Part shown: positions 3,221-25,007 of the stretch, one piece after another
Layout of the letters: the number at the start of each line of letters is the position of its first letter
Position numbering within the stretch: the stretch's first letter is position 1
DNA from: Methanothermobacter thermautotrophicus str. Delta H
GTDB lineage: Archaea; Methanobacteriota; Methanobacteria; Methanobacteriales; Methanothermobacteraceae
Assembly: GCF_000008645.1 (NCBI RefSeq)
Contig: NC_000916.1
Span: forward strand, 210,001 to 242,000
Length of the DNA stretch: 32,000 bases
Direction: 5' to 3'
Notes under the pieces: generated by a model
Databases searched by the model: none
The model's input: the letters and a program-made list of their open reading frames with translations, nothing else
What the model was told of the DNA's origin: nothing
Made by a program: the position numbers and the translations under genes

Positions 3221-3378
3221 CTCTCAAGGGCCCTGACCGGGCACACCTGTATGCATATGTTGCATTCCCTGCACTCATCCTCTCTGAATTTGAGGGATGT
3301 CTCCCTAACCTCTATGAGGTTCCGTGGGCATACACCTGCACATTCCCCACAGAACATACACCATTCCTTAACCTTCAT
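3217..3378 (-). CDS. 2x[4Fe-4S] ferredoxin (53 aa), not in the supplied ORF track
   Basis: My own minus-strand translation gives MKVKEWCMFCGECAGVCPRNLIEVRETSLKFREDECRECNICIQVCPVRALER. It contains two CxxCxxCxxxCP motifs. It sits directly upstream of, and is coupled to, the geranylgeranyl reductase, which is a common archaeal pairing. Confidence 0.8.
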   Translation of the reverse strand: MKVKEWCMFCGECAGVCPRNLIEVRETSLKFREDECRECNICIQVCPVRALER

Positions 3379-3490
3379 GGTTATCAACCTAAAATCAATT
3401 CTTCAGATCATGAATCTTTTATCATGGGGTTGCTTATACTTTGGGGTTAACCCTTTATAGTTCCTAATCTTTCACTGGAGGAGTATTTAT

Positions 3491-3600
3491 ATGTTTATAT
3501 GTTATGGCTCTGTTTGCGGGAACTGCCTCATCCTATGTTTATATGTTATGGCTCTGTTTGCGGGAACTGCCTCATCCTATGTTTATATGTTATGGCTCTG
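3491..3600. repeat. perfect 44-bp tandem repeat, 2.5 copies
   Basis: The unit atgtttatatgttatggctctgtttgcgggaactgcctcatcct occurs at 3491-3534 and 3535-3578, with a 22-bp partial copy at 3579-3600. Each unit carries a TTTATAT motif. Confidence 0.95.
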
Positions 3601-3709
3601 ATTCGGGACCGGCATCAGCTACTGCCTTGATAGGAGATGGGAGCACTCAGGTCAACCTCGCGAAAATTATAAATCCAGTCACTGACAATAATTATTAGGG
3701 AGGTTAATT

Positions 3710-4210
3710 ATGAAGAAGATTTTATTTCTGGTTCTTGTGGCCGCAACGGTGCTTGTATAGGGTTGTGTGAGTGAGGAACCCCAGTATAAGAGTTTCTCTG
3801 AGGGAACACTGAACTTCACCTATCCTGCGGCATGGGAGACATTTAACCCTGAGAATGCCCAGAGTGCCTTCACAAAGGAACCCGGAATTTCAAAGGATGT
3901 TATAGTCTATGTGGGTAACAGCAGTCATGATTTTGCCGCTGCAAAGGTCACGGCACGATCAGGTTACTACCTCAAGGACGTCGAGACAGTAAAAAATCAG
4001 ATGGCTAAAAATGAGGGTGTTACATCTGCAGAGATACGCAGTATAGCGGGGCGTAACGCTGCAGTGGTAACAGCCACGGACTCAACAACGCGCACCACCT
4101 TCGTTTACCTGAAGCTCAGCAGGACCAGTGGCTATGCCTTCATGTATGAGGGCCCACTATCTGATACTGCAACCCTTGAGGCCATACTCAGCAGTGTCAG
4201 GATAACATAA
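3710..4210 (+). pseudogene. putative secreted lipoprotein interrupted by an in-frame TAG in the lipobox (or N-terminally truncated product starting at GTG 3767)
   Basis: A GGGAGGT SD at 3698-3704 is followed by ATG 3710, encoding MKKILFLVLVAATVLV-TAG(3758-3760)-GCVSEEPQYKS... in the same frame as track ORF 3767..4210. This is a classic signal peptide plus a lipobox Cys. Confidence 0.6.
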
Positions 4211-4220
4211 ACCCTCTCTT

Positions 4221-6290
4221 TTATTTTTTCTGGTTCAGTACCATCATGACCTCTGACATGAATTCATTCTCCCCCAGACGTTTCATTGTGGCTGCAAGCC
4301 TCTCCCTCTGGGGCTTATCTGCGCAACTCCCGTACACATCCAGGACGGCGTCTATGCAGTCAAGTATTTCACCGGGATCATCAATGCGCATGCTCAGACC
4401 CTCCCTGAGTTCTCTTCCAGCTTTACCGCCAATGTAGAGCACATAACCCTTATCCTTAACCTCCCTTGCGCTGTGCGGACATGATTTTATGCACTTCCCG
4501 CAGCCCACACAGAGGTCATAGCTGGTGTAGGATGTCTCCCCCCTTACGCTGACTGCCTCAACCTTGCAGACCTCTTCACATCTTCCGCAGCCATTGCAGA
4601 GATCCTCAGAGGTTACGGGAAATTCGACACCCACCACTCCAATGTCATGTATCTGGGGCCTCATGCACTTGTTAGGACATCCGCTTACAGCTATCTTGAA
4701 TTTGTAGGGGGCTGGTCTCTCCCTGAACCGTTCCTCGATTGCGGTGCAGATCTCCTCTGTGTCTATGATCCCCGTTCCGCAGTTCTCCTTACCCGGACAT
4801 GCGAGGGTTGCCCTTACAAGGGGGCCCTCTGAACCTGTGAGGAGACCGGCGGAGTTCAGTTCATTGACGGCGTCTTCAACATCAAAGCCATTTATTCCGT
4901 GGAGTTCATAGGATCCCCTGTTGGTGATTTTGATCCTTGCACCGTATTTCTCTGCCACCTGAACGATGTCCATGATTCTGTCGGGGCTGTACCATCCTGC
5001 TGGATGTGCCCTTATCCTTATGAAGTATGTTCCATCAGCCCTCTCTGAGACCCCCGGGTGATCTGAGGTCCAGTAGAAGGATATGTAATCACCGTTTTCT
5101 CTTCTTTTCTCAATTTCCCTTCTGAATCTTTTTAGCTTCAGTTTCCTCAGCCTTTCGATGGCCTCCCTGTCTGCGCCCTCCAGCAGATCCAGGGCCTCCC
5201 TGATTTCAGCACCCCTATCTGTCCTTATTATGACGGTTGAGTACCCATCAGGGCTTCCGGCAGAGCCTATGGAGACGTCTGCAAGTTCAGCATCGAAGTC
5301 CCTGCAGAGCCTGCAGCCATCACAGAGCCCTATCCTGCTGAGTTCAATGGTGCGTTCACCTCCATCGAGATGGACAACCATTTTACCTCTTCGGATGTCG
5401 AACTTTTTGACTTCGCTGATATCAATGCCCTCATCCATGAGTGCCTCCCTGAGGTCAGTGTATTCGAATTTCTCTGTGCAGAAGAGGCCTATGAGGTACC
5501 TTATCTCGGGGAGCTTCACGGGTCTGCCGCTCCTTCCAAGTTCAGGGTCATGCTTTGCAAGGTATGGGAAGTACTGAAGCTTACGCAGTCCATTGATCTG
5601 GCATGGCAGCGCAACAACCGCCACACTCTCAAGGCCAAGTTCTGATGCTGTTTTAAGTGCTTCAAGGGTTGATATGCTGTACTTTGAACCGCTCGTTGCT
5701 TCGAGGTCATCTGTGCTCTGGACAACCAGCGATACTGGTTTCCATTTTTCATGACCCACAACTATGGCGCCGTCTATCCGGTCATTCTCCATGAGGTACC
5801 TCAGGAAGGATGTTACCACTCCACCGTCCTGCCCCCTGGCAGTGCCCCTTCCGTAGAGGATCTCCTCCCTGAAGTTTTCACGTATCCCTATCTGGTATTT
5901 GCCTGATGACACCCGGGGGCATACCTCGAAGCACATCCCGTGACCATTTCTCAGGCATTCCTCTGTTAGTTCGGGTCTGCCATTGAATGTCAGGATGTTG
6001 TTGGGACATATCACTGCACAGGTCCCGCACCTTGCACAGATCCCACCATCGACGATTCCCTCCAGTTTCCATTTTCTGATTGATGGGTACATTCTCGCAA
6101 GTTTTTCGGGGGATCCCATACGTGAAATGGCCTCCAGGATCACATCCTCATTCACGCTGGTTTTTCTGCTGGCTGCTATCGCCTCTGCGCTGTCAAGTAT
6201 ATGTGTTTCCAGTTCACGTGCAACCTCCTCCCTCTCCTCAGGGGGCATCCTTCTGGTCACAGCTGCTATGAATTCATCAACTTTATTCAT
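4221..6290 (-). CDS. fsr: F420-dependent sulfite reductase-like fusion (FrhB/FdhB-type F420 domain + siroheme sulfite/nitrite reductase half) with an extra N-terminal HAAS/DUF1700-like helical module
   Basis: 689 aa. Residues ~1-70 (MNKVDEFIAAVTRRMPPEEREEVARELETHILDS...GSPEKLARMY) resemble the helical module usually encoded next to PadR regulators. Next come ferredoxin Cys clusters (CARCGTCAVICP, CFEVCP) and an FrhB-like core (GQDGGVVTSFL...ALPCQINGL...GLFCTEKF). The C-terminal SiR half follows (TLACPGKENCGTG, AVSGCPNKCMRPQ, CNGCGRCEEVC, CVGCGKCIKSCP). Confidence 0.85.
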   Translation of the reverse strand: MNKVDEFIAAVTRRMPPEEREEVARELETHILDSAEAIAASRKTSVNEDVILEAISRMGSPEKLARMYPSIRKWKLEGIVDGGICARCGTCAVICPNNILTFNGRPELTEECLRNGHGMCFEVCPRVSSGKYQIGIRENFREEILYGRGTARGQDGGVVTSFLRYLMENDRIDGAIVVGHEKWKPVSLVVQSTDDLEATSGSKYSISTLEALKTASELGLESVAVVALPCQINGLRKLQYFPYLAKHDPELGRSGRPVKLPEIRYLIGLFCTEKFEYTDLREALMDEGIDISEVKKFDIRRGKMVVHLDGGERTIELSRIGLCDGCRLCRDFDAELADVSIGSAGSPDGYSTVIIRTDRGAEIREALDLLEGADREAIERLRKLKLKRFRREIEKRRENGDYISFYWTSDHPGVSERADGTYFIRIRAHPAGWYSPDRIMDIVQVAEKYGARIKITNRGSYELHGINGFDVEDAVNELNSAGLLTGSEGPLVRATLACPGKENCGTGIIDTEEICTAIEERFRERPAPYKFKIAVSGCPNKCMRPQIHDIGVVGVEFPVTSEDLCNGCGRCEEVCKVEAVSVRGETSYTSYDLCVGCGKCIKSCPHSAREVKDKGYVLYIGGKAGRELREGLSMRIDDPGEILDCIDAVLDVYGSCADKPQRERLAATMKRLGENEFMSEVMMVLNQKK

Positions 6291-6619
6291 TGATCAACCT
6301 CCGTAAGGTCTTCAAGGGACCTGTTTATTGATCTGAAGAGTTCAAGCCACTTTTTTCTGACTCTCTTCCCGTAATCTGTCACAGTATAGTATTTCCTTGG
6401 TCGTGTGTCGTCCGTGCTCCACCTGCTGCTGAGGATTCCCTCCCCTTCAAGTCTTCTAAGGAGGGGGTATAGGGTTCCTTCCTCGACGCGAAATCCGGAT
6501 TCTTTGAGTTTTTTAACAATTTCGTATCCGTATCTCTCATTTTCAAGTAGACAGATCACTTCAAGCTGTATTGCGCCGCGCCTCAGCTCCCTTTCAAATC
6601 TTTCACAGACACTGCTCAT
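6287..6619 (-). CDS. PadR-family winged-helix transcriptional regulator
   Basis: The sequence ...YGYEIVKKLKESGFRVEEGTLYPLLRRLEGEGILSSRWSTDDTRPRKYYTVTDYGK matches the PadR signature. The likely start is ATG 6619 (MSSVCERF), preceded by GTGAGGGAT; the track start at 6661 would lie inside the promoter. The stop overlaps the fsr-like ATG as ATGA (6287-6290). Confidence 0.9.
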   Translation of the reverse strand: MSSVCERFERELRRGAIQLEVICLLENERYGYEIVKKLKESGFRVEEGTLYPLLRRLEGEGILSSRWSTDDTRPRKYYTVTDYGKRVRKKWLELFRSINRSLEDLTEVDQ

Positions 6620-6642
6620 TGGATGATCCCTCACATGATATG

Positions 6643-6690
6643 GCACATATATGTGCTGCACACAGTACCTTGTACCACACAGTATATAAA
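6643..6690 (-). promoter_or_regulatory. PadR-operon promoter: TATA-like box (6683-6690) plus a perfect 14-bp palindrome gcacatatatgtgc (6643-6656)
   Basis: Read on the minus strand, TTTATATA is followed ~25-30 nt later by the palindrome, about 25 nt upstream of ATG 6619. That geometry fits an autoregulatory operator over the transcription start. Confidence 0.45.
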
Positions 6691-7954: not shown

Positions 7955-8908
7955 GTGGTTCAGTTAATTTATGGTGATTCTATGAGTGGACTTAAATTCT
8001 CGCCGGTTGAGTTTGAAAGGGAGATTCAGGCAAGGGAGATGGCATTATCGGGTATAGCCAGTTCAAGGACCAGGATTGAGGGTCTGAAGTCGGAGATACT
8101 GAGAAACCTGGATGAAATTCCTGATGGGGCATGGAAGAGGTCTCCTGAAATTGCGGGGGTGAAATCCTGGATTAATGGGGCCACGGATGTATATATCGAC
8201 AGCACGATGAACAGCAACGAACTCCAGAAAATTGAGAGTGACCTCAAACGTACTGAGAAGATGGCCAGGGAACTGCTGGGGACCGTGGTCGATATAAAGG
8301 TTAAGGCCAGAAGGGAAAGGAGGGTCATGTTAAAACTTGAGAGTATCAATGCAGGATTTAATTGGAAAAAGGACCTTCTTGAGAAGTGGAAGTCTTCGGA
8401 TTCAGAGAGGTTCAGGGAGAAGATTGAGAGGGCCATGGAGGCCGTGAAAAGGGGGGACTTCAGCGGGGCCGAAACCAGGATTCCAGGTCTTGAAGATGAA
8501 CTGAGAGACCTCATCGAGGAAGCCGAGAAACTCGAATCAAACGACAGGATGCGCAGGCATGTTCTCTCTTCCGTTAAAGAGGTCGCTGAAAGGATGGGCT
8601 GGAAGGAAGTTTCAGAACCATACCTTGAGGATGATAAGGACCCATCCAGCCCCCTCATATATGAGCTGAAATCATATTCCGCGGGAAAGATGCGCTTTTC
8701 ACTTACCATGGACAGAATAGATGTTGAATCACCATTTTCAGCTGAAGATGGAGCCTGTTATGAACAGTTCGACAGATTCTCAGAGAAACTCCAGGAATAT
8801 GGTATCCGGACAAAATTCGAAGGGAACCAGGGAGGACCCAGGAATAAACCAGTCTTAAAGGAGAAGAAAGCAAAGAGGCTTCCAGAAAGTCGCATGAGAA
8901 GGATATGA
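7955..8908 (+). CDS. coiled-coil protein, unknown function (cluster gene 1)
   Basis: 317 aa, rich in charged and heptad-like helical sequence, with a small C-terminal mixed domain. An alternative start is ATG 7982, preceded by GGTGAT. I recognised no catalytic motif. Confidence 0.7.
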   Translation: MVQLIYGDSMSGLKFSPVEFEREIQAREMALSGIASSRTRIEGLKSEILRNLDEIPDGAWKRSPEIAGVKSWINGATDVYIDSTMNSNELQKIESDLKRTEKMARELLGTVVDIKVKARRERRVMLKLESINAGFNWKKDLLEKWKSSDSERFREKIERAMEAVKRGDFSGAETRIPGLEDELRDLIEEAEKLESNDRMRRHVLSSVKEVAERMGWKEVSEPYLEDDKDPSSPLIYELKSYSAGKMRFSLTMDRIDVESPFSAEDGACYEQFDRFSEKLQEYGIRTKFEGNQGGPRNKPVLKEKKAKRLPESRMRRI

Positions 8909-8923
8909 TGGAGATGTTGATCC

Positions 8924-10774
8924 ATGGCAGTATGGCAGGATAACCTTAAAAGACTGCTGAATCAGAAAGAGGTACTCATAATCCACGGAAACATAAGGGA
9001 CACCGCATACCTCACCGAGGAAGGAAACCTCGTCAGGGGCCTCACAGACCTTATCAACAGGACCGGCAGGGAACTTGGATACGATAAGACAGTGAGCTGG
9101 GGTTCATTCTTTGACCATGAAGGGAGGGGCCACTCCCCCATGTGGTCACTTGAAAGGATCACACCACTCAATGGGGACCAGCCAGAGATAAGGGAAACCG
9201 AAAGCCAGGACAGAGTCAGTGACGTACTCCACAGATGGCTGGAGGACGAAATAACCTCCATTGATGAGAAAAAGATCTTTATTATAAATTACATCGACAA
9301 GATCACAGGCTACGCTCCAGATGGAATGTACTCTGAACCCACAGCAGAACTTGTGACGCTCATACAGAAGATAATAGAGAACATATCTGAAAACAACCGC
9401 CTCATAATGATCGCCCTCAGGGACACGATGATCCCGGTTGAGTACTATACGAACTCGCCCCGTGTAGCAGTGATGGAGATACCCCTCCCTGACAGAGCAG
9501 AGAGACACCTTTACTATTCCACAACACTGGCCTCAGCAAGCATCCCATCCGATCAGATAGACTTACTCTCCAACATCACAGAGGGCCTCTACATGAAGGA
9601 CCTCGAAAACATCCTCAGCGACGTCCTGGAAGAAATTGATGAGAACCAGGAAGTCTCCTCTTCAATGCTGAGAAAAATAGTTAACAGGTACCGTATAGGT
9701 ACCGAAGAGGATCCATGGAGCAGGATACCACTCACAGGGCCTCCAAAGGGGCTTCTGGACTCGGCAGAGAACTGGTTTCTGGAGAGGGTTGTCGGACAGG
9801 ATCATGCGGTCAGGGAGATAGTGAATGCAATAAAGAAGGCACGTTCAGGTGTCGTGGGCCTTTCATCGGGGGGACAGTCAAAACCAAAGGCAACGTTCTT
9901 CTTCGCAGGGCCTACAGGTGTTGGTAAAACATTCCTGGCCAAAAAACTGGCAGAGTACCTGTTTGATACGGAGGAAGCATTTTTAAGGTTTGACATGAGT
10001 GAATTCAAGGAAGAGCACACAGTATCAAAGCTCATAGGTTCTCCTCCAGGTTATGTTGGATATGAACAGGGAGGACAGCTCACCAACGCCATAAAGAACA
10101 GACCATTCTCGGTCATCCTCTTTGATGAGATCGAAAAGGCTCACCCCAAGATAATGGATATATTCCTTCAGATCCTTGATGATGGACGCCTCACAGACAG
10201 CAGGGGACAGACGGTCTTCTTCACAGAGAGCGTGATAATATTCACATCCAACATCGGGACCAGAACCGTGGACAGCAGGGGAAACACCACATCTGAACAG
10301 AGGAAACTTGATGAAATAATAAATGACAGCGATCTCTCTGACTCTGAAAGGGAGAGAAGGGTGAGGGAACACTTCACGCGCAGTGTTAGAGAGTTCTTCA
10401 TGCATGAGATATCAAGAAGAGAACTTCTTAACAGGATAGGCTCACATATAATAGCCTTCAACTACCTGAAAAAATCAGATTACCAGGTGAACATAATTGA
10501 AAACAAACTCAAGGACATTTCAGAGAACTTCCGCGACAAATTCGCAGGCAGGGGGCACCGGCTCCACCTCTCCGGGGAATTAACTGGATATTTCCTTGAG
10601 AAGTATGGAGATTCAATATCAGAGTTCGGGGGCAGAGGTCTTGTAAATGCCCTTGAAGATGAAATAGGGAACATAGTGGCTGACCAGCTGCTCCTTGCAG
10701 AGGAGAGGGGAATGTCAGATATAAATTTCGAAGTATATGTTGATGGGGATGTAATCAGATGCCGGAGATCATGA
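8924..10774 (+). CDS. tandem AAA+ ATPase: degenerate N-terminal AAA-like half + ClpA/ClpB D2-type active half with ClpB_D2-small-like C-terminus (cluster gene 2)
   Basis: Walker A GPTGVGKT is at 9908-9931 and Walker B VILFDEIEKA at ~10115-10141. Clp-D2 hallmarks are present: LRFDMSEFKEEHTVSKLIGSPPGYVGYEQGGQLT and DGRLTDSRGQTV..IIFTSN. The N-terminal half has HGNIRDT where a P-loop would sit, so there is no GK[ST]. Confidence 0.85.
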   Translation: MAVWQDNLKRLLNQKEVLIIHGNIRDTAYLTEEGNLVRGLTDLINRTGRELGYDKTVSWGSFFDHEGRGHSPMWSLERITPLNGDQPEIRETESQDRVSDVLHRWLEDEITSIDEKKIFIINYIDKITGYAPDGMYSEPTAELVTLIQKIIENISENNRLIMIALRDTMIPVEYYTNSPRVAVMEIPLPDRAERHLYYSTTLASASIPSDQIDLLSNITEGLYMKDLENILSDVLEEIDENQEVSSSMLRKIVNRYRIGTEEDPWSRIPLTGPPKGLLDSAENWFLERVVGQDHAVREIVNAIKKARSGVVGLSSGGQSKPKATFFFAGPTGVGKTFLAKKLAEYLFDTEEAFLRFDMSEFKEEHTVSKLIGSPPGYVGYEQGGQLTNAIKNRPFSVILFDEIEKAHPKIMDIFLQILDDGRLTDSRGQTVFFTESVIIFTSNIGTRTVDSRGNTTSEQRKLDEIINDSDLSDSERERRVREHFTRSVREFFMHEISRRELLNRIGSHIIAFNYLKKSDYQVNIIENKLKDISENFRDKFAGRGHRLHLSGELTGYFLEKYGDSISEFGGRGLVNALEDEIGNIVADQLLLAEERGMSDINFEVYVDGDVIRCRRS

Positions 10775-11826
10775 ACCTTTACTGTGAGGTGAACCTGACA
10801 ACGCCCCTGGTCCTTGTGCTTGAGCCATCACCGGTCCTCTGGGAGGATATAATGAAGGTTTCAGCTGAAGTTATCGATTCCTTCCCGGGGAGGGTTAACA
10901 GGGTCTACTTCCCTGGCCAGAGGGAACACGAAGCCATCAGAACCTCCGGGGACCTCCGGAGAGATGGTCCGCGATGTCTCAGCAGGGGCAGGAACAGACC
11001 CCTTCTAATAAACCCGGTCCTTGAGAAACTCAATGAGGAAAAATTCACAGGTATCATAATCCTTGTTTCATCACGGGTCCCCATTGATATTGAGGACTGG
11101 GAGGGTACGGATGTCCCTGAGAGGCTGGTCTTCATCAACATGGGTGATGGGGACATTGAAGGCCCCTACAGGGTTATCGGCAGATCAAACATCAACCTCC
11201 AGATAGCTCCCCTCCTAAACAATGAGCCTACCGAGGTTTTTGTTTCCGGTGATGGCTTTGTCCCGTTGCGTTACAGTGTTGAGCCATTCAGATCATCAGA
11301 GATAGTGTTCAGGGATGGGGACTTCCTCCTGAATATTGAACCATCATCTGAGCCTTTAAAAATCCACCTTGCAGCAATCTGTAAGGACAGAGTTCCAGAA
11401 CTCAATATAAGACGTCAGAGGGGGTCACTGACAGAGAGGGTAGGTTTTAAGGAGGAAAGGCCCTGGTTTGATCAGAAATGGAATAAGATCCCTGATGATC
11501 TGAGGGACATCATCAGATCCGCCACAGAGAAAAGGGACTTCAAATGCCCCAGCTGCGGTGAAAAACACGCCTTTGATACCATGACATGCCCCTCCGGGGA
11601 CCTGATTTTAAGGGGACTGCCCGCAGGCAGATGCATCCTCTTCAGGGGAGATGAATACATTTCACTGGCAGATGCCCATGCATATCCCCTGGAGGATGGG
11701 AAGATAATAACCGCGGAGGGTAAGATTTACCGTCTGAAGGATGATGGTGGATGGGAGTACCTGAAGGACGTGGAACCATACGAGAGGGTTGATGATGATC
11801 TATTCGCATTATTCTATAGTATTTGA
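10759..11826 (+). CDS. degenerate vWA-like domain protein with C-terminal Zn-ribbon (cluster gene 3)
   Basis: ATG 10771 overlaps the upstream stop as ATGA (10771-10774). The strand pattern LVLVLEPSPV...GRNRPLLINPVLEKL...GIIILVSSRVPID resembles a vWA fold with the MIDAS DxSxS replaced by EPSPV. A CPSCGEKHAFDTMTCPSGD Zn-ribbon follows. The domain call is by eye only. Confidence 0.6.
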   Translation: MPEIMNLYCEVNLTTPLVLVLEPSPVLWEDIMKVSAEVIDSFPGRVNRVYFPGQREHEAIRTSGDLRRDGPRCLSRGRNRPLLINPVLEKLNEEKFTGIIILVSSRVPIDIEDWEGTDVPERLVFINMGDGDIEGPYRVIGRSNINLQIAPLLNNEPTEVFVSGDGFVPLRYSVEPFRSSEIVFRDGDFLLNIEPSSEPLKIHLAAICKDRVPELNIRRQRGSLTERVGFKEERPWFDQKWNKIPDDLRDIIRSATEKRDFKCPSCGEKHAFDTMTCPSGDLILRGLPAGRCILFRGDEYISLADAHAYPLEDGKIITAEGKIYRLKDDGGWEYLKDVEPYERVDDDLFALFYSI

Positions 11827-15688: not shown

Positions 15689-16198
15689 TCAAGTGCAGAA
15701 CTTTCCTGATGGAGTTAACAGGTTACCACGGGCCGTGATACCAAAGAATACCACATCCTCAGGTCCGTAGCCCTCATCGAAGCTCCAGTCTGTTGTTTCA
15801 AAATAGGCCCTTTCACCTGGTCCCAGGGTGTTTATGAGGGATGACCCTCTGAATACCGGAGCCATTCCAATGGCTATGAGATCTCCATCACTGTTAAATC
15901 CCTTGACCCAGACATAATCGATATGCATGGCTGAGCTGTATCTGTTCTGGATCTCCCCTTTCACAACATAGTCTCCAGTGTAATCTGAGAAGACAGTGTA
16001 GTTGAGGACCTCTACCTGGGCTTTACTCTCGATGACCTCATCGACAGCTGACGACCCATTAATATGACCCAACACAAAACTGAGGAATCCCACTATTAGT
16101 AAGGATATTATGATCAGGGTTGCCTTTGTAAAGGTACTCCTTCTACTCCACCATCCACCTGATCTGCCAGTTTTTCCATCATCAACATCTGAAGACAT
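15689..16198 (-). CDS. N-terminally anchored membrane protein with FxLYD/DUF3426-like beta-sandwich ectodomain (paralogue A)
   Basis: 169 aa: MSSDVDDGKTGRSGGWWSRRS, a TM helix, then ...VEVLNYTVFSDYTGDYVVKGEIQNRYSSAMHIDYVWVKGFNSDGDLIA. The domain call is by eye. Confidence 0.6.
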   Translation of the reverse strand: MSSDVDDGKTGRSGGWWSRRSTFTKATLIIISLLIVGFLSFVLGHINGSSAVDEVIESKAQVEVLNYTVFSDYTGDYVVKGEIQNRYSSAMHIDYVWVKGFNSDGDLIAIGMAPVFRGSSLINTLGPGERAYFETTDWSFDEGYGPEDVVFFGITARGNLLTPSGKFCT

Positions 16199-16235
16199 TA
16201 AATCACCTTATTAAGTCAATCAAAGCTTAAGTCCT

Positions 16236-16682
16236 CTAAAAAACGTGTGCTTGTGTTTGAAGTCCAACAGTAAGAATGTTGGGATGTTCCTCCCAGATGA
16301 TCCCTTCGATTCTGGTCTTCTTACCAGGGGGGAGTACATAATACCCAAAAGCCCACCCATGCAAACGATCTTCACTTGAGTTAAAACCTGTTATGCTGAT
16401 ATCATCAACAAACACGGTTTCTTCATAGTTGTTCTGAATCTCAAAGGTGATATTGTAAATACCGTCATGATCATGAGTTATGGTGTAATTTACGATATTC
16501 ACATGAAATCTTTCATCGTCCATTTCTGTGGCAGAGTCCACCCCCTCGCTGTAACCCAGTGAGTAGGTGATGCATACCCAGAGTATTATGCCGAGGATTA
16601 TGATACCCTTTCTGCTGTAACTGCTCCTTTTACTCCACCATCCACGTAATCTGCCAGTTTTTCCGTCATCATCTGAAGACAT
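16236..16682 (-). CDS. paralogue B of the 15689..16198 protein
   Basis: 148 aa: MSSDDDGKTGRLRGWWSKRS, a TM helix, then ...VNIVNYTITHDHDGIYNITFEIQNNYEETVFVDDISITGFNSSEDRL. The architecture and N-terminal motif match the neighbouring gene. Confidence 0.6.
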   Translation of the reverse strand: MSSDDDGKTGRLRGWWSKRSSYSRKGIIILGIILWVCITYSLGYSEGVDSATEMDDERFHVNIVNYTITHDHDGIYNITFEIQNNYEETVFVDDISITGFNSSEDRLHGWAFGYYVLPPGKKTRIEGIIWEEHPNILTVGLQTQAHVF

Positions 16683-22372: not shown

Positions 22373-25007
22373 TTGAGAGGAACTCTAAAGAAGATTGGGG
22401 GGATAGAATTTGGTCTCATGTCCCCAGAGGATATCAGGAAGATATCCGTCGCCCAGATCGTCACCCCGGACACCTACAACGAGGACGGGTACCCCATAGA
22501 GAACGGACTCATGGATCCCAGGCTCGGTGTGATAGACCCCCGGTTCCGCTGCTGGACCTGCGGCGCAAGGGGAGGGGAGTGCCCGGGACACTTCGGGAGC
22601 ATAAACCTTGCAAGGCCGGTCATACACGTGGGATTCGCAGACACCATACACAAGATCCTGCGGTCAACCTGCAGAAAATGTGGGAGGGTCCTCCTCACCG
22701 GGACTGAAATCGAGGAATATATCAGAGGATACTTGAAGCCATGGAGAAAGAGGAAAACTTCACGCCACTGGTAAACAGGGTATACTCCCTTGCAAGGAGG
22801 GACAGGTGCCCCCACTGTGAGGAGGAACAGCAGGAGATCAAACTCGACAAGCCCGTCTCAATCGTCGAGGGAGACTACAAGCTCACACCCAGTGAGGTGA
22901 AGGAGCGTCTTGAGAGGATAAGCGATGACGACGCCCTCATCCTCGGTGTCAACCCCCAGGTTGCAAGGCCAGAATGGATGGTCCTGACAGTCCTCCCGGT
23001 CCCCCCGTAACGATGAGGCCCTCAATCACCCTCAAAAACGGTGAAAGGTCAGAGGACGACCTGACCCATAAACTGGTCGATATACTCAGGATAAACCAGC
23101 GCCTCAAGGAGAACATGGAGGCAGGGGCTCCCCAGCTGATCGTGGAGGACCTCTGGGAACTCCTGCAGTACCATGTGACCACCTACTTCGATAACGAGGC
23201 CTCTGGTGTAACCCCTGCAAGGCAACGATCTGGAAGGCAGCTGCTGACGTTAATGCAGCGCTTAAAGAGCAAAAAGGGGATGTTCAGCAGTGAACTTTCA
23301 AAAGGACGGTTTAGGGGCAACCTTTCAGGTAAGAGGGTTAACTTCTCTGCCCGTACTGTCATCTCCCCGGATCCCAACATCAGCATAAACGAGGTGGGTG
23401 TCCCTGAAATCATAGCCAGGGAGGTTACCGTACCGGTCTACGTCACAGAATGGAACATAGACCGTATGAGGGAGTACATAGAAAACGGGCCAGACGTCCA
23501 CCCGGGAGCCAACTACGTCATAAGACCCGACGGACGCAGGATAAGAATCTCCTCTAAAAACACGGAAACTGTCATTGAGAACCTGAAACCTGGATACGTG
23601 GTTGAGAGACACCTCAAGGATGGTGACATCGTACTGTTCAACCGTCAACCATCCCTCCACAGGATGTCCCTCATGGCCCACCGGGCCCGTGTACTGCCCT
23701 ACAAGACCTTCCGCCTCAACCTGTGTGTATGCCCACCCTACAACGCCGACTTTGACGGTGACGAGATGAATATTCATGTACTGCAAACAGAGGAGTCCAG
23801 GGCAGAGGCAAAAACCTTAATGCTCGTCCAAGAACACATGATATCCCCCAGATTCGGGGGGCCTATAATAGGTAGTATAAATGACCAGATATCTGGATTG
23901 TATCTCCTCACAAGAAAATTTGCAGAATTTGAAGAGGAAGAGGTATTCCAGCTACTTAGAAGCGCTGGAATTTCATTACCATCTAGAAGGGGCACTAAAT
24001 GGAGTGGTAAAGAAATATTTAGCCTGATACTCCCAGATGACCTCAGCATGACCTACAGGGCAGATGTATGCAGAAGATGTCAGGAATGCATCGAAGATGG
24101 ATGTGAATATGATGCATATGTAGTAATAGAAAATGGAAGGCTCGAATCAGGCGTTATTGACAAAAAAACATGCGGGGCATTTTCAGGTAGATTGCTGGGA
24201 CATATAATCAGGGAATATGGTACTGATGAGGCCCGTGAATTCTTGGAATCAGCCAGCAGGCTGGCCATAGCAGTACTCATGAGGACAGGGTTCACGACAA
24301 GTATCATGGACTTTGACGTGCCCGAAGAAGCTAGACAAATGATAGATTCAGTGCTTGGAATGGTTATGGATCGTGTGGAAGGGCTCACTGAGGACAAGGA
24401 GGATGGGAGAGTCGAACCAGTGCAAGTAATGAGTTCGGAGAAGAACTTTGAGATTACGATAATGAAGGTCCTGGCCGGGGCAAGGGAGAGGGGAGGGGAA
24501 ATAGCCAGGAAGTACCTTGGGGTGGATGGAAACCAGGGATATATGATAACCCGGACGGGTCTGAAGTGTTCATTGCTTAACTTCACCCAGATAACAGCCT
24601 GTTTGGGGCAGCAGTCCGTCAGGGGTGAGCGTATCAGCAGGGGATACGATAACAGGACACTCCCTCACTTCAGGAAGGGAGAGCTCGGGGCAAAGTCCCG
24701 GGGATTCGTACAATCAAGTTACAGGGAAGGTCTGGATCCCATTGAATTCTTCTTCCACGCCATGGGTGGAAGGGATGCCCTCGTGGATACAGCCGTCCGC
24801 ACAGCCCAGAGCGGTTACATGCAGAGGCGTCTCATAAACGCTCTCCAGGACCTCACAGTCGATGAGGATGGCAGGGTAAGGGATAGCTGCGGTAACGTGA
24901 TTCAGATACTCTACGGCGAGGACGGGGTAAGCCCCTGGAGGGGGAAAAATGGCGAAATAGTGGATCTGGAACAGCTGGTCTATGAGATCAGGAGAAAAAG
25001 CCCATGA
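22373..25007 (+). pseudogene. rpoA1: DNA-directed RNA polymerase subunit A' (Rpo1N) paralogue, split into three frames; orphan (no rpoH/rpoB/rpoA'' neighbours)
   Basis: Three collinear ORFs, 22373..22774 (frame 2), 22741..23010 (frame 1) and 22974..25007 (frame 3), together give a full-length A'. Landmarks are the Zn site [25 protein letters not shown]|[36 protein letters not shown] and catalytic NADFDGDEMN (23742-23771). The frame breaks are at ~22718-22740 (tatat) and at or next to C6 23001-23006. Confidence 0.9.

What the first reader, a model, noticed from the sequence alone, without database searches (positions are those of the whole stretch)
4221..6661. PadR regulator translationally coupled to an Fsr-type F420-sulfite reductase carrying an extra N-terminal HAAS/DUF1700-like module
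The PadR stop and the downstream ATG overlap as ATGA (6287-6290). The downstream protein is a complete Fsr-like fusion: ferredoxin clusters, then an FrhB-like F420 domain, then a siroheme SiR half. It also begins with ~70 extra residues, MNKVDEFIAAVTRRMPPEEREEVARELETHILDSAEAIAAS...AISRMGSPEKLARMY. To me these match the helical module that is normally the N-terminus of the membrane protein encoded beside PadR regulators (DUF1700/HAAS type), which is thought to bind and control the PadR partner. Here that regulator-binding module is fused to a soluble redox enzyme rather than a membrane sensor. This suggests that the catalytic or redox state of the sulfite reductase directly gates its own PadR repressor, making the enzyme a 'trigger enzyme'. 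I am not aware of this wiring having been described for Fsr.
Basis: partly seen in the sequence, partly recalled or inferred. Interest (0 to 1): 0.65.

Follow-up and report, generated by a model that had tools for sequence, protein, structure and literature searches.

The report
Sulfite reductase carrying a repressor-docking module
In this methanogen, the enzyme that detoxifies sulfite carries at its front end a small helical module normally found on membrane sensors that partner with PadR repressors, and it is co-transcribed with such a repressor, so the enzyme may report on its own substrate to control its own gene.

Summary
On the minus strand, a 110-aa PadR gene (6287-6619) overlaps by ATGA a 689-aa gene (4221-6290). 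Residues 73-685 of that protein are a complete group I F420-dependent sulfite reductase (E 4e-291 to solved Fsr structures, all catalytic residues kept). Residues 6-66 match Pfam HAAS above threshold.

The extension is translated. It has its own Shine-Dalgarno site in all seven operons examined and a coding-type substitution pattern.

In 11 of 11 Methanothermobacter/Methanobacterium loci with this HAAS-Fsr, a PadR gene sits directly upstream. A TATA-abutting inverted repeat (TATACTRT-N7-AYAGTA) is exact in 8 of these promoters and occurs nowhere else in 82 loci.

The closest HAAS and PadR relatives form canonical PadR/HAAS-membrane-protein pairs, so the whole pair was co-opted. In an exhaustive profile search, Fsr was the only HAAS protein without transmembrane segments after the module.

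Methanobrevibacter/Methanosphaera Fsr keep a homologous but degenerate extension and have no PadR neighbour. Methanococcales Fsr lack the extension.

The trigger-enzyme mechanism is plausible but untested. No paper found links PadR and Fsr. I rate it a new variant of a known kind, with moderate-high interest.

The parts
6683..6690 (-). Archaeal TATA box TTTATATA of the padR-fsr operon
   Evidence: Read. The block ATATACT is invariant in the alignment of seven orthologous promoters.
6666..6684 (-). Candidate PadR operator O1: inverted repeat TACTGT-N7-AAGGTA (consensus TACTRT-N7-AYAGTA) overlapping the 3' end of the TATA box
   Evidence: The window copy has 2 mismatches. The exact motif TATACTRT-N7-AYAGTA is present in 8 padR-fsr promoters and nowhere else in 82 loci. 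It sits at the same position in all loci.
6643..6662 (-).
   Evidence: unique in the window, 0.07 expected. Orthologous promoters carry ATGT/ACAT- or TGTG/CACA-type palindromes at the same place, but not the same sequence.
6628..6632 (-). Shine-Dalgarno GAGGG for padR, 8 nt before ATG 6619
   Evidence: GGAGG-like sites occupy the same place in the orthologues.
6287..6619 (-). padR: 110-aa PadR-family winged-helix regulator (short subfamily)
   Evidence: PF03551 at 81 bits. It is the 110-aa form in most database entries. Orthologues are 59-72% identical in all HAAS-Fsr loci.
6298..6302 (-). Shine-Dalgarno GGAGG for fsr inside the padR 3' end, 7 nt before ATG 6290; the stop and start codons overlap as ATGA (6287-6290)
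   Evidence: GGAGG or GGTGA lies 6-8 nt before the long-form start in six of the seven operons examined (not evident in L046); the padR stop to fsr start distance is -14 to +7 nt across the loci.
6084..6290 (-). HAAS module, Fsr aa 1-69: helices 2-11, 17-41, 48-58, a kink at G59-S60-P61, then helix 61-67
   Evidence: PF22564 at 43.6/49.9 bits. All 10 orthologous extensions match HAAS. AF2 pLDDT is 78-96. Substitutions versus L001 are biased to the third codon position.
4221..6074 (-). Group I Fsr core, aa 73-689: N-terminal 2x[4Fe-4S] ferredoxin domain, FrhB-like F420H2 oxidase, siroheme sulfite reductase with inserted ferredoxin; stop codon included
   Evidence: Matches 7NP8/7NPA at E 4e-291 over aa 73-685. 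R425, R458, R493, K530, K532 and C498/C504/C538/C542 are present, equivalent to MjFsr R355, R388, R423, K460, K462 and the CX5C...CX3C motif (PMC10229431).

Best explanation
padR-fsr is a self-contained, autoregulated two-gene operon in which the enzyme is probably the sensor.

Shown by sequence:
- One promoter, with a TATA box at 6683-6690, drives padR and the translationally coupled fsr.
- Fsr is a catalytically intact group I F420H2-dependent sulfite reductase.
- Its N-terminus carries a bona fide HAAS module. This module and the PadR partner were co-opted together from the PadR/HAAS-membrane-protein pairs common in Methanobacteria.

Inferred from conservation:
- A PadR dimer binds the inverted repeat that abuts the TATA box (6666-6684) and the palindromic region over the predicted transcription start (6643-6662). 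This would block TBP/TFB/RNA polymerase and repress both genes.

Inferred from the HAAS-PadR rule:
- The HAAS module contacts PadR through the surface around the ELxxHILDSA helix and the GxP kink.

Speculative:
- Binding depends on the state of the enzyme. The HAAS ends about 15 residues before the first cluster cysteine of the N-terminal ferredoxin domain, which holds two [4Fe-4S] clusters of the electron relay.
- Sulfite or nitrite turnover drains this relay, while idle enzyme is kept reduced by F420H2.
- The substrate-engaged or oxidised tetramer would capture PadR and derepress the operon. Once sulfite is consumed, PadR would be released and the operon shut off.
For: - Domain identity: HAAS is above the Pfam cut-off and matches 10/10 orthologous extensions. 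The predicted fold is three helices with a GxP kink, as the family is defined (PMC11237479).
- Translation of the extension: a Shine-Dalgarno site precedes the long start in six of the seven operons examined, and none precedes the internal Met67. Substitutions by codon position are 17/10/37 in the extension versus 27/15/74 in the core.
- Strict pairing: PadR lies directly upstream in 11/11 canonical HAAS-Fsr loci although the flanking genes differ.
- Co-option of the whole pair: the nearest HAAS relatives (46-59% identical) are HAAS-TM proteins encoded after PadR genes, and those PadRs are 50-73% identical to the Fsr-linked ones.
- Shared signature: residues Y7, V11, E26, L27, H30, I31, D33, A35, A39, E53, G59, A65 and Y68 are conserved whether the module is fused to an enzyme or to TM helices. 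Several, notably H30, G59 and Y68, are lost where there is no PadR neighbour. This points to a common partner, not to contacts with the Fsr core.
- Operator: TATACTRT-N7-AYAGTA is exact in 8 promoters and absent elsewhere in 82 loci.
- Intact enzyme.
- The HAAS-PadR pair is proposed to work by a conformational change in HAAS passed on to PadR (PMC11237479).
Against: - No HAAS-PadR physical interaction has been shown experimentally for any member, as far as the searched literature shows. The rule is itself comparative.
- Methanobrevibacter/Methanosphaera Fsr keep a homologous ~70-80-aa helical extension (hhalign probability 98%) with no PadR within about 6 kb. So the extension may also, or instead, have a PadR-independent role.
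- In the window the O1 repeat is imperfect (2 mismatches, a level expected by chance 1.8 times per 32 kb). Its significance rests on position and cross-species conservation.
- One Methanocaldococcus MAG has a PadR-family gene upstream of a short fsr without HAAS, so PadR control of fsr may not need HAAS.
- The direction of control and the signal are not constrained by any data here.
Confidence: 0.55

Rival explanations
1. PadR is a conventional ligand-responsive autorepressor that senses sulfite, a sulfite adduct or another small molecule directly. The N-terminal extension of Fsr serves the enzyme itself (assembly or stability of the tetramer, or docking of another partner) and does not signal to PadR.
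For: - The extension persists in degenerate form in about 25 Methanobrevibacter/Methanosphaera loci that have no PadR neighbour.
- A PadR-family gene precedes a HAAS-less fsr in one Methanocaldococcus MAG.
- Many PadR regulators bind small ligands directly (general knowledge of PadR and LmrR).
Against: - The residues most conserved in the Fsr module are the same as in HAAS modules fused to unrelated TM domains. They decay where PadR is absent, which is the opposite of what an enzyme-internal role predicts.
- Pairing is 11/11.
- Both partners derive from canonical pairs.
- Methanococcales Fsr form stable tetramers without any extension (PMC10229431).
Confidence: 0.28
2. HAAS binds PadR constitutively, so the pair works as a dosage feedback on enzyme abundance (Fsr titrates, or acts as co-repressor with, its 1:1 co-translated PadR) without sensing substrate or redox state. 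Induction by sulfite, if any, comes from elsewhere.
For: - Tight translational coupling (ATGA, -14 to +7 nt in all loci) gives fixed stoichiometry.
- Nothing in the sequence shows a switch.
Against: - A constitutive 1:1 anti-repressor would cancel the repressor and make the circuit pointless.
- In all other contexts HAAS modules are attached to sensory or membrane domains (PMC11237479).
Confidence: 0.12
3. The extension is an annotation artefact. Translation starts near Met67, as in the 619/626-aa database entries, and the upstream in-frame codons are not part of the protein.
For: - Some database entries of the same cluster are 619 or 626 aa.
- Met67-Tyr-Pro resembles the MYEWKL start of Methanococcales Fsr.
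Against: - There is no Shine-Dalgarno site before Met67, while GGAGG lies 7 nt before ATG 6290.
- The extension is 74% identical between species, as conserved as the core, with third-position-biased substitutions.
- The Pfam HAAS match is significant.
- MYP is part of the HAAS family motif and is also present in the TM-fused forms.
Confidence: 0.02

Closest known systems
HAAS-PadR-like wHTH pairs (Ravi et al., mSystems 2024, PMC11237479), e.g. Listeria LltR/Lmo0600 (DUF1700 membrane protein) and LstR/Lmo0421 (PMC6624303)
   Same: - A short PadR gene is followed directly by a gene whose product starts with a three-helix HAAS module carrying a GxP kink.
- The operon appears autoregulated.
- Close archaeal paralogues of both partners exist as canonical PadR/HAAS-TM pairs (L077, L078).
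   Different: - Here the HAAS is fused to a cytoplasmic multi-cluster redox enzyme. The published partners are multi-TM domains, Toastrack or pentapeptide repeats.
- In an exhaustive search, Fsr was the only full-length relative without TM segments after the module.
- The host is an archaeon and the promoter is TATA-box type.
Group I F420-dependent sulfite reductase, MjFsr/MtFsr (PDB 7NP8, 7NPA; PMC10229431)
   Same: - About 65% identity over the whole enzyme.
- Same domain order.
- All sulfite-binding and siroheme-cluster residues are kept.
   Different: - The characterised enzymes start at MYEWKL and have no N-terminal module.
- In the loci surveyed they have no adjacent PadR, except one Methanocaldococcus MAG with an unrelated long PadR.
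- The extension and the PadR are not mentioned in the Fsr papers read.
Trigger enzymes (enzymes that control a transcription factor by protein-protein contact depending on their catalytic state, e.g. Bacillus subtilis glutamine synthetase with TnrA/GlnR; from general knowledge)
   Same: The proposed logic: the enzyme that handles the metabolite is also the sensor, and it acts on a separate DNA-binding protein.
   Different: - No interaction has been shown here.
- In this case a dedicated, modular docking domain was grafted onto the enzyme, rather than an interaction surface evolving on the catalytic body.

Membership tests
HAAS domain / HAAS-PadR pair | Match to the HAAS profile (PF22564) above the curated cut-off | tested here: met
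   43.6 bits in the whole protein and 49.9 bits alone, against a cut-off of 27. 10/10 orthologous extensions match.
HAAS domain / HAAS-PadR pair | Three consecutive helices, the third kinked at a conserved GxP motif (PMC11237479) | tested here: met
   AF2 models give helices 2-11, 17-41, 48-58, a break at G59-S-P61, then 61-67, with pLDDT 78-96. This is a prediction only. No solved relative was found by sequence or by fold (best Foldseek E 0.14).
HAAS domain / HAAS-PadR pair | Gene neighbourhood contains a stand-alone PadR-like wHTH gene | tested here: met
   PadR lies directly upstream in the window and in 10/10 further canonical HAAS-Fsr loci.
HAAS domain / HAAS-PadR pair | HAAS sits at the N-terminus of a multi-TM or known intracellular sensory domain (typical architecture) | tested here: not met
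   The downstream part is a soluble Fsr enzyme with no hydrophobic segment. All other full-length relatives have TM segments from about aa 75-100.
HAAS domain / HAAS-PadR pair | HAAS physically modulates the PadR partner | not testable with these tools
   Complex modelling is not available here, and no experiment was found in the literature.
Group I Fsr (F420H2-dependent sulfite reductase) | Single chain with the order ferredoxin, FrhB-like oxidase, then siroheme SiR with inserted ferredoxin, collinear with MjFsr/MtFsr | tested here: met
   Pfam domains. Gap-free alignment of aa 73-685 to 7NP8 residues 3-615, E 4e-291.
Group I Fsr (F420H2-dependent sulfite reductase) | Sulfite-binding R355/R423/K460/K462, R388, and the CX5C...CX3C siroheme-cluster motif (MjFsr numbering) | tested here: met
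   R425, R493, K530, K532, R458 and C498/C504/C538/C542 are present (offset +70; residues listed in PMC10229431).
Group I Fsr (F420H2-dependent sulfite reductase) | F420H2-dependent sulfite reduction; induction by sulfite | not testable with these tools
   This is biochemistry and expression data, which was not found for this organism in the searched papers.
PadR family repressor (short, ~110 aa type) | PadR winged-helix domain | tested here: met
   PF03551 at 81.2 bits, cut-off 27.
PadR family repressor (short, ~110 aa type) | Binds an inverted repeat in its own promoter | tested here: inconclusive
   A conserved TATA-abutting inverted repeat exists, but binding was not tested. The window copy is imperfect.
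Trigger enzyme | State-dependent control of a transcription factor by the enzyme | not testable with these tools
   This is inference only.

The most novel reading that the evidence does not exclude
Fsr of Methanothermobacter/Methanobacterium is a true trigger enzyme. The occupancy or redox state of its siroheme/[4Fe-4S] relay is transmitted to the grafted HAAS module, which reversibly sequesters the PadR repressor. Sulfite (or nitrite) would then be sensed by the detoxifying enzyme itself. This would be the first soluble, biochemically tractable HAAS-PadR signalling pair and the first described regulator of fsr in a methanogen.
Probability: 0.33. Interest if true: 0.75.

Novelty: new variant of a known kind. 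Interest (0 to 1): 0.6.

Why it matters
How methanogens switch on Fsr when toxic sulfite appears is not explained in any of the Fsr papers read here. This locus offers a concrete two-protein, one-promoter circuit to test, apparently in Methanothermobacter thermautotrophicus (the window's proteins map to a 1,751,377-bp contig, and near-identical entries carry Methanothermobacter names).

It also bears on HAAS-PadR pairs, which were proposed only from comparative genomics as an alternative to two-component systems. Nearly all known members are membrane proteins and hard to study. A soluble HAAS fused to an enzyme whose substrates, cofactors and structure are known would allow direct tests of whether and how HAAS controls PadR.

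Finally, it is an example of a regulatory docking module being moved from a membrane sensor to a metabolic enzyme.

Tried and rejected
- **Fossil start idea.** I considered that Met67-Tyr-Pro is the fossil start codon of an ancestral short Fsr (MYEWKL), marking a gene fusion. I dropped this because MYP is part of the HAAS motif in the TM-fused paralogues too.
- **Short-start annotation (619/626 aa).** Rejected on the Shine-Dalgarno site, conservation and codon-position evidence.
- **Solved structures.** A sequence search of the PDB with the HAAS profile gave nothing meaningful (best E 0.03). Foldseek of the isolated HAAS model against the PDB gave only non-significant histone-fold-like hits (best E 0.14, TM 0.53). 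No structural membership test against a solved HAAS/DUF1048 was therefore possible.
- **Degenerate extensions.** A Pfam scan of the Methanobrevibacter/Methanosphaera extensions gave 0/24 HAAS hits. Homology appeared only by profile-profile comparison.
- **PadR near the degenerate forms.** Searches for PadR within about 6 kb, by phmmer and by a 9-sequence HMM, found none.
[quoted passage not shown] It is not.
- **NCBIfam.** It gave only sub-threshold hints (perm_prefix_1 at 24.8 bits, padR_acidobact at 51 bits).
- **Fsr tree.** A neighbour-joining tree of Fsr cores suggests the extension is older than the split from the extension-less Methanococcales clade. The rooting and the AT-rich long branches make this unreliable, so I draw no conclusion on gain versus loss.
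- **Complex modelling.** PadR-HAAS complex modelling was not possible with the tools.
Full report
**1. What is in the sequence**

On the minus strand an ORF runs 6661-6287. Its likely start is ATG 6619, preceded by GAGGG at 6628-6632, and most database entries are the 110-aa form. It is a PadR-family regulator (PF03551, 81 bits).

Its TGA stop overlaps the ATG of the next ORF as ATGA at 6287-6290. That ORF (6290-4221, 689 aa) has ferredoxin, FrhB_FdhB_N/C, NIR_SIR_ferr and NIR_SIR domains. It also has a HAAS match (PF22564) at aa 6-66, scoring 43.6 bits in the whole protein and 49.9 bits alone, against a cut-off of 27.

Against solved structures, aa 73-685 align without gaps to residues 3-615 of the Fsr chains 7NP8 and 7NPA (E 4e-291 and 8e-290). 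The sulfite-binding and siroheme-cluster residues listed for MjFsr (PMC10229431) are all present at an offset of +70. The window's proteins map to a 1,751,377-bp contig, and near-identical proteins are named from Methanothermobacter.

The operon is bicistronic. The next gene downstream is convergent, and the next gene upstream ends about 230 bp before the TATA box.

**2. The extension is real protein**

- GGAGG lies 7 nt before ATG 6290. An equivalent GGAGG or GGTGA precedes the long start in five of the six orthologous loci examined.
- There is no such site before the internal Met67.
- Between the window and a 72%-identical Methanothermobacter locus, substitutions in codons 1-72 fall 17/10/37 on codon positions 1/2/3. 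In the next 156 codons the figures are 27/15/74.
- The extension is 74% identical to its nearest named homologue, the same as the whole protein.
- Some database entries call a 619- or 626-aa product. These are most likely short-start calls.

**3. Distribution**

Of 111 Fsr homologues, those from Methanococcales, Methanothermus and Methanohalobium are about 615-625 aa and start at MYEWKL. Those from Methanothermobacter, Methanobacterium, Methanobrevibacter and Methanosphaera mostly carry 65-80 extra residues.

All ten Methanothermobacter/Methanobacterium extensions scanned match HAAS. None of 24 Methanobrevibacter/Methanosphaera extensions does. Yet the two sets are homologous by profile-profile comparison (probability 98%, E 2e-13 over 72 columns).

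In genome context (then):
- A PadR gene ends -14 to +7 nt from the fsr start in the window and in 10 of 10 further loci with a canonical HAAS. The flanking genes differ among them.
- No PadR lies within about 6 kb in roughly 25 loci with the degenerate extension.
- No PadR lies in about ten Methanococcales loci, with one exception (section 8).

The survey is limited to the best 80 hits and one genome per species.

**4. Origin**

Profile searches with the module find 59 cluster representatives. Apart from Fsr, every full-length one has hydrophobic segments starting right after the module.

The closest, at 46-59% identity, are small HAAS-2TM or HAAS-6/7TM proteins. In the two contexts retrieved they follow a PadR gene. 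Those PadRs are 50-73% identical to the Fsr-linked ones, and the better preserved of their two promoters (L078) has the same TATA-plus-repeat layout, with the repeat less clear in L077. So both halves of a canonical pair were co-opted.

A set of residues (Y7, V11, E26, L27, H30, I31, D33, A35, A39, E53, G59, A65, Y68) is at least 80% conserved in both the Fsr-fused and the TM-fused modules. Several of them, notably H30, G59 and Y68, are lost in the PadR-less lineages. That pattern fits a surface for the shared partner, not one for the fused domain.

**5. Promoter**

All seven promoters first compared share an invariant ATATACT block followed at fixed distance by ...AGTA. This is a TATA box abutted by the inverted repeat TACTRT-N7-AYAGTA.

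The motif TATACTRT-N7-AYAGTA is exact in eight padR-fsr promoters and occurs nowhere else in 82 fetched loci. The Methanothermobacter copies have one degenerate arm: window 6666-6684 has 2 mismatches, and L082 is similar.

Downstream, over the expected transcription start, each promoter has a second palindrome of ATGT/ACAT or TGTG/CACA type. A repressor bound there would occlude the archaeal pre-initiation complex. Binding itself is not shown.

**6. Structure**

AF2 of the full protein (pLDDT 86) and of the module alone (pLDDT 88.7) give helices 2-11, 17-41 and 48-58, a break at G59-S-P61, then helix 61-67. This matches the published description of HAAS (PMC11237479). There is no solved relative to compare with.

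**7. Mechanism and literature**

The HAAS-PadR pair was proposed from comparative genomics as a signalling unit in which HAAS relays a conformational change to PadR. Experimental work covers the PadR repressors and their operons in Listeria, not the interaction itself. The Fsr papers read do not mention the extension, PadR or any regulator. No paper holds both PadR and F420-dependent sulfite reductase.

The most likely reading is that PadR autorepresses padR-fsr and that the HAAS on Fsr couples PadR activity to the enzyme. Whether this depends on substrate or redox state is open. The module's position, about 15 residues before the first cluster cysteine of the N-terminal ferredoxin domain, makes that attractive but proves nothing.

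The main counter-evidence is that a degenerate extension persists without PadR in other genera.

**8. Side observations**

In one Methanocaldococcus MAG, a 154-aa PadR-family gene lies 190 bp upstream of a short fsr. Its C-terminal part is not HAAS-like. An RNA polymerase A' gene in the window is split over three overlapping ORFs.

**9. Verdict**

The homology and architecture claims are supported, and the trigger-enzyme mechanism is plausible but untested. This is a new variant of a known kind: a HAAS-PadR pair grafted onto a soluble redox enzyme. It is directly testable, apparently in Methanothermobacter thermautotrophicus.

Noticed in passing
window 22373-25007 (+): An RNA polymerase subunit A'/Rpb1-like gene (Pfam Rpb1 domains 1-5) is spread over three overlapping ORFs (22373-22774, 22741-23010, 22974-25007). 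This implies two frameshifts: a pseudogene, sequencing errors, or something programmed.
   Followed up: no
L047 1010-1474 (+), fsr fragment 1664-2083; the same gene continues in L021: In one Methanocaldococcus MAG, a 154-aa PadR-family protein (PF03551, 61 bits) with a non-HAAS C-terminal helical tail is encoded 190 bp upstream of a short-form fsr. It is absent from the other Methanococcales loci, where the same divergent membrane-protein gene abuts fsr directly.
   Followed up: partly
L011, L014-L017, L019, L022-L032, L035, L036, L044, L045 (fsr N-termini): Methanobrevibacter/Methanosphaera Fsr keep a 70-90-aa helical N-terminal extension homologous to HAAS. It has lost H30, G59 and Y68 and much of the rest of the helix-2 signature (ELxxHILDSA), and it has no PadR neighbour. 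Its function there is unexplained.
   Followed up: partly
L078 873-3574: A canonical archaeal PadR / HAAS / DUF5518 membrane protein / ABC transporter cluster has the same TATA-abutting TACTGT-N7-ACAGCA repeat as the fsr operons. Cross-talk between paralogous PadRs is therefore possible.
   Followed up: partly
L026 2261-3022 (+), upstream of fsr 3253-5094: A short-form Methanobacteriaceae fsr (no extension) is preceded by a 253-aa ORF that looks like a TrmB-type regulator, judged from its N-terminal sequence only. This hints that different lineages wire fsr to different regulators.
   Followed up: no
window 7955-11826 (+) and 15689-16682 (-): An AAA_2 (Cdc48/Clp-type) ATPase (8924-10774) is flanked by two ORFs with no Pfam match. 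Separately, there are two tandem paralogous small membrane proteins (169 and 148 aa) with nearly identical N-termini.
   Followed up: no
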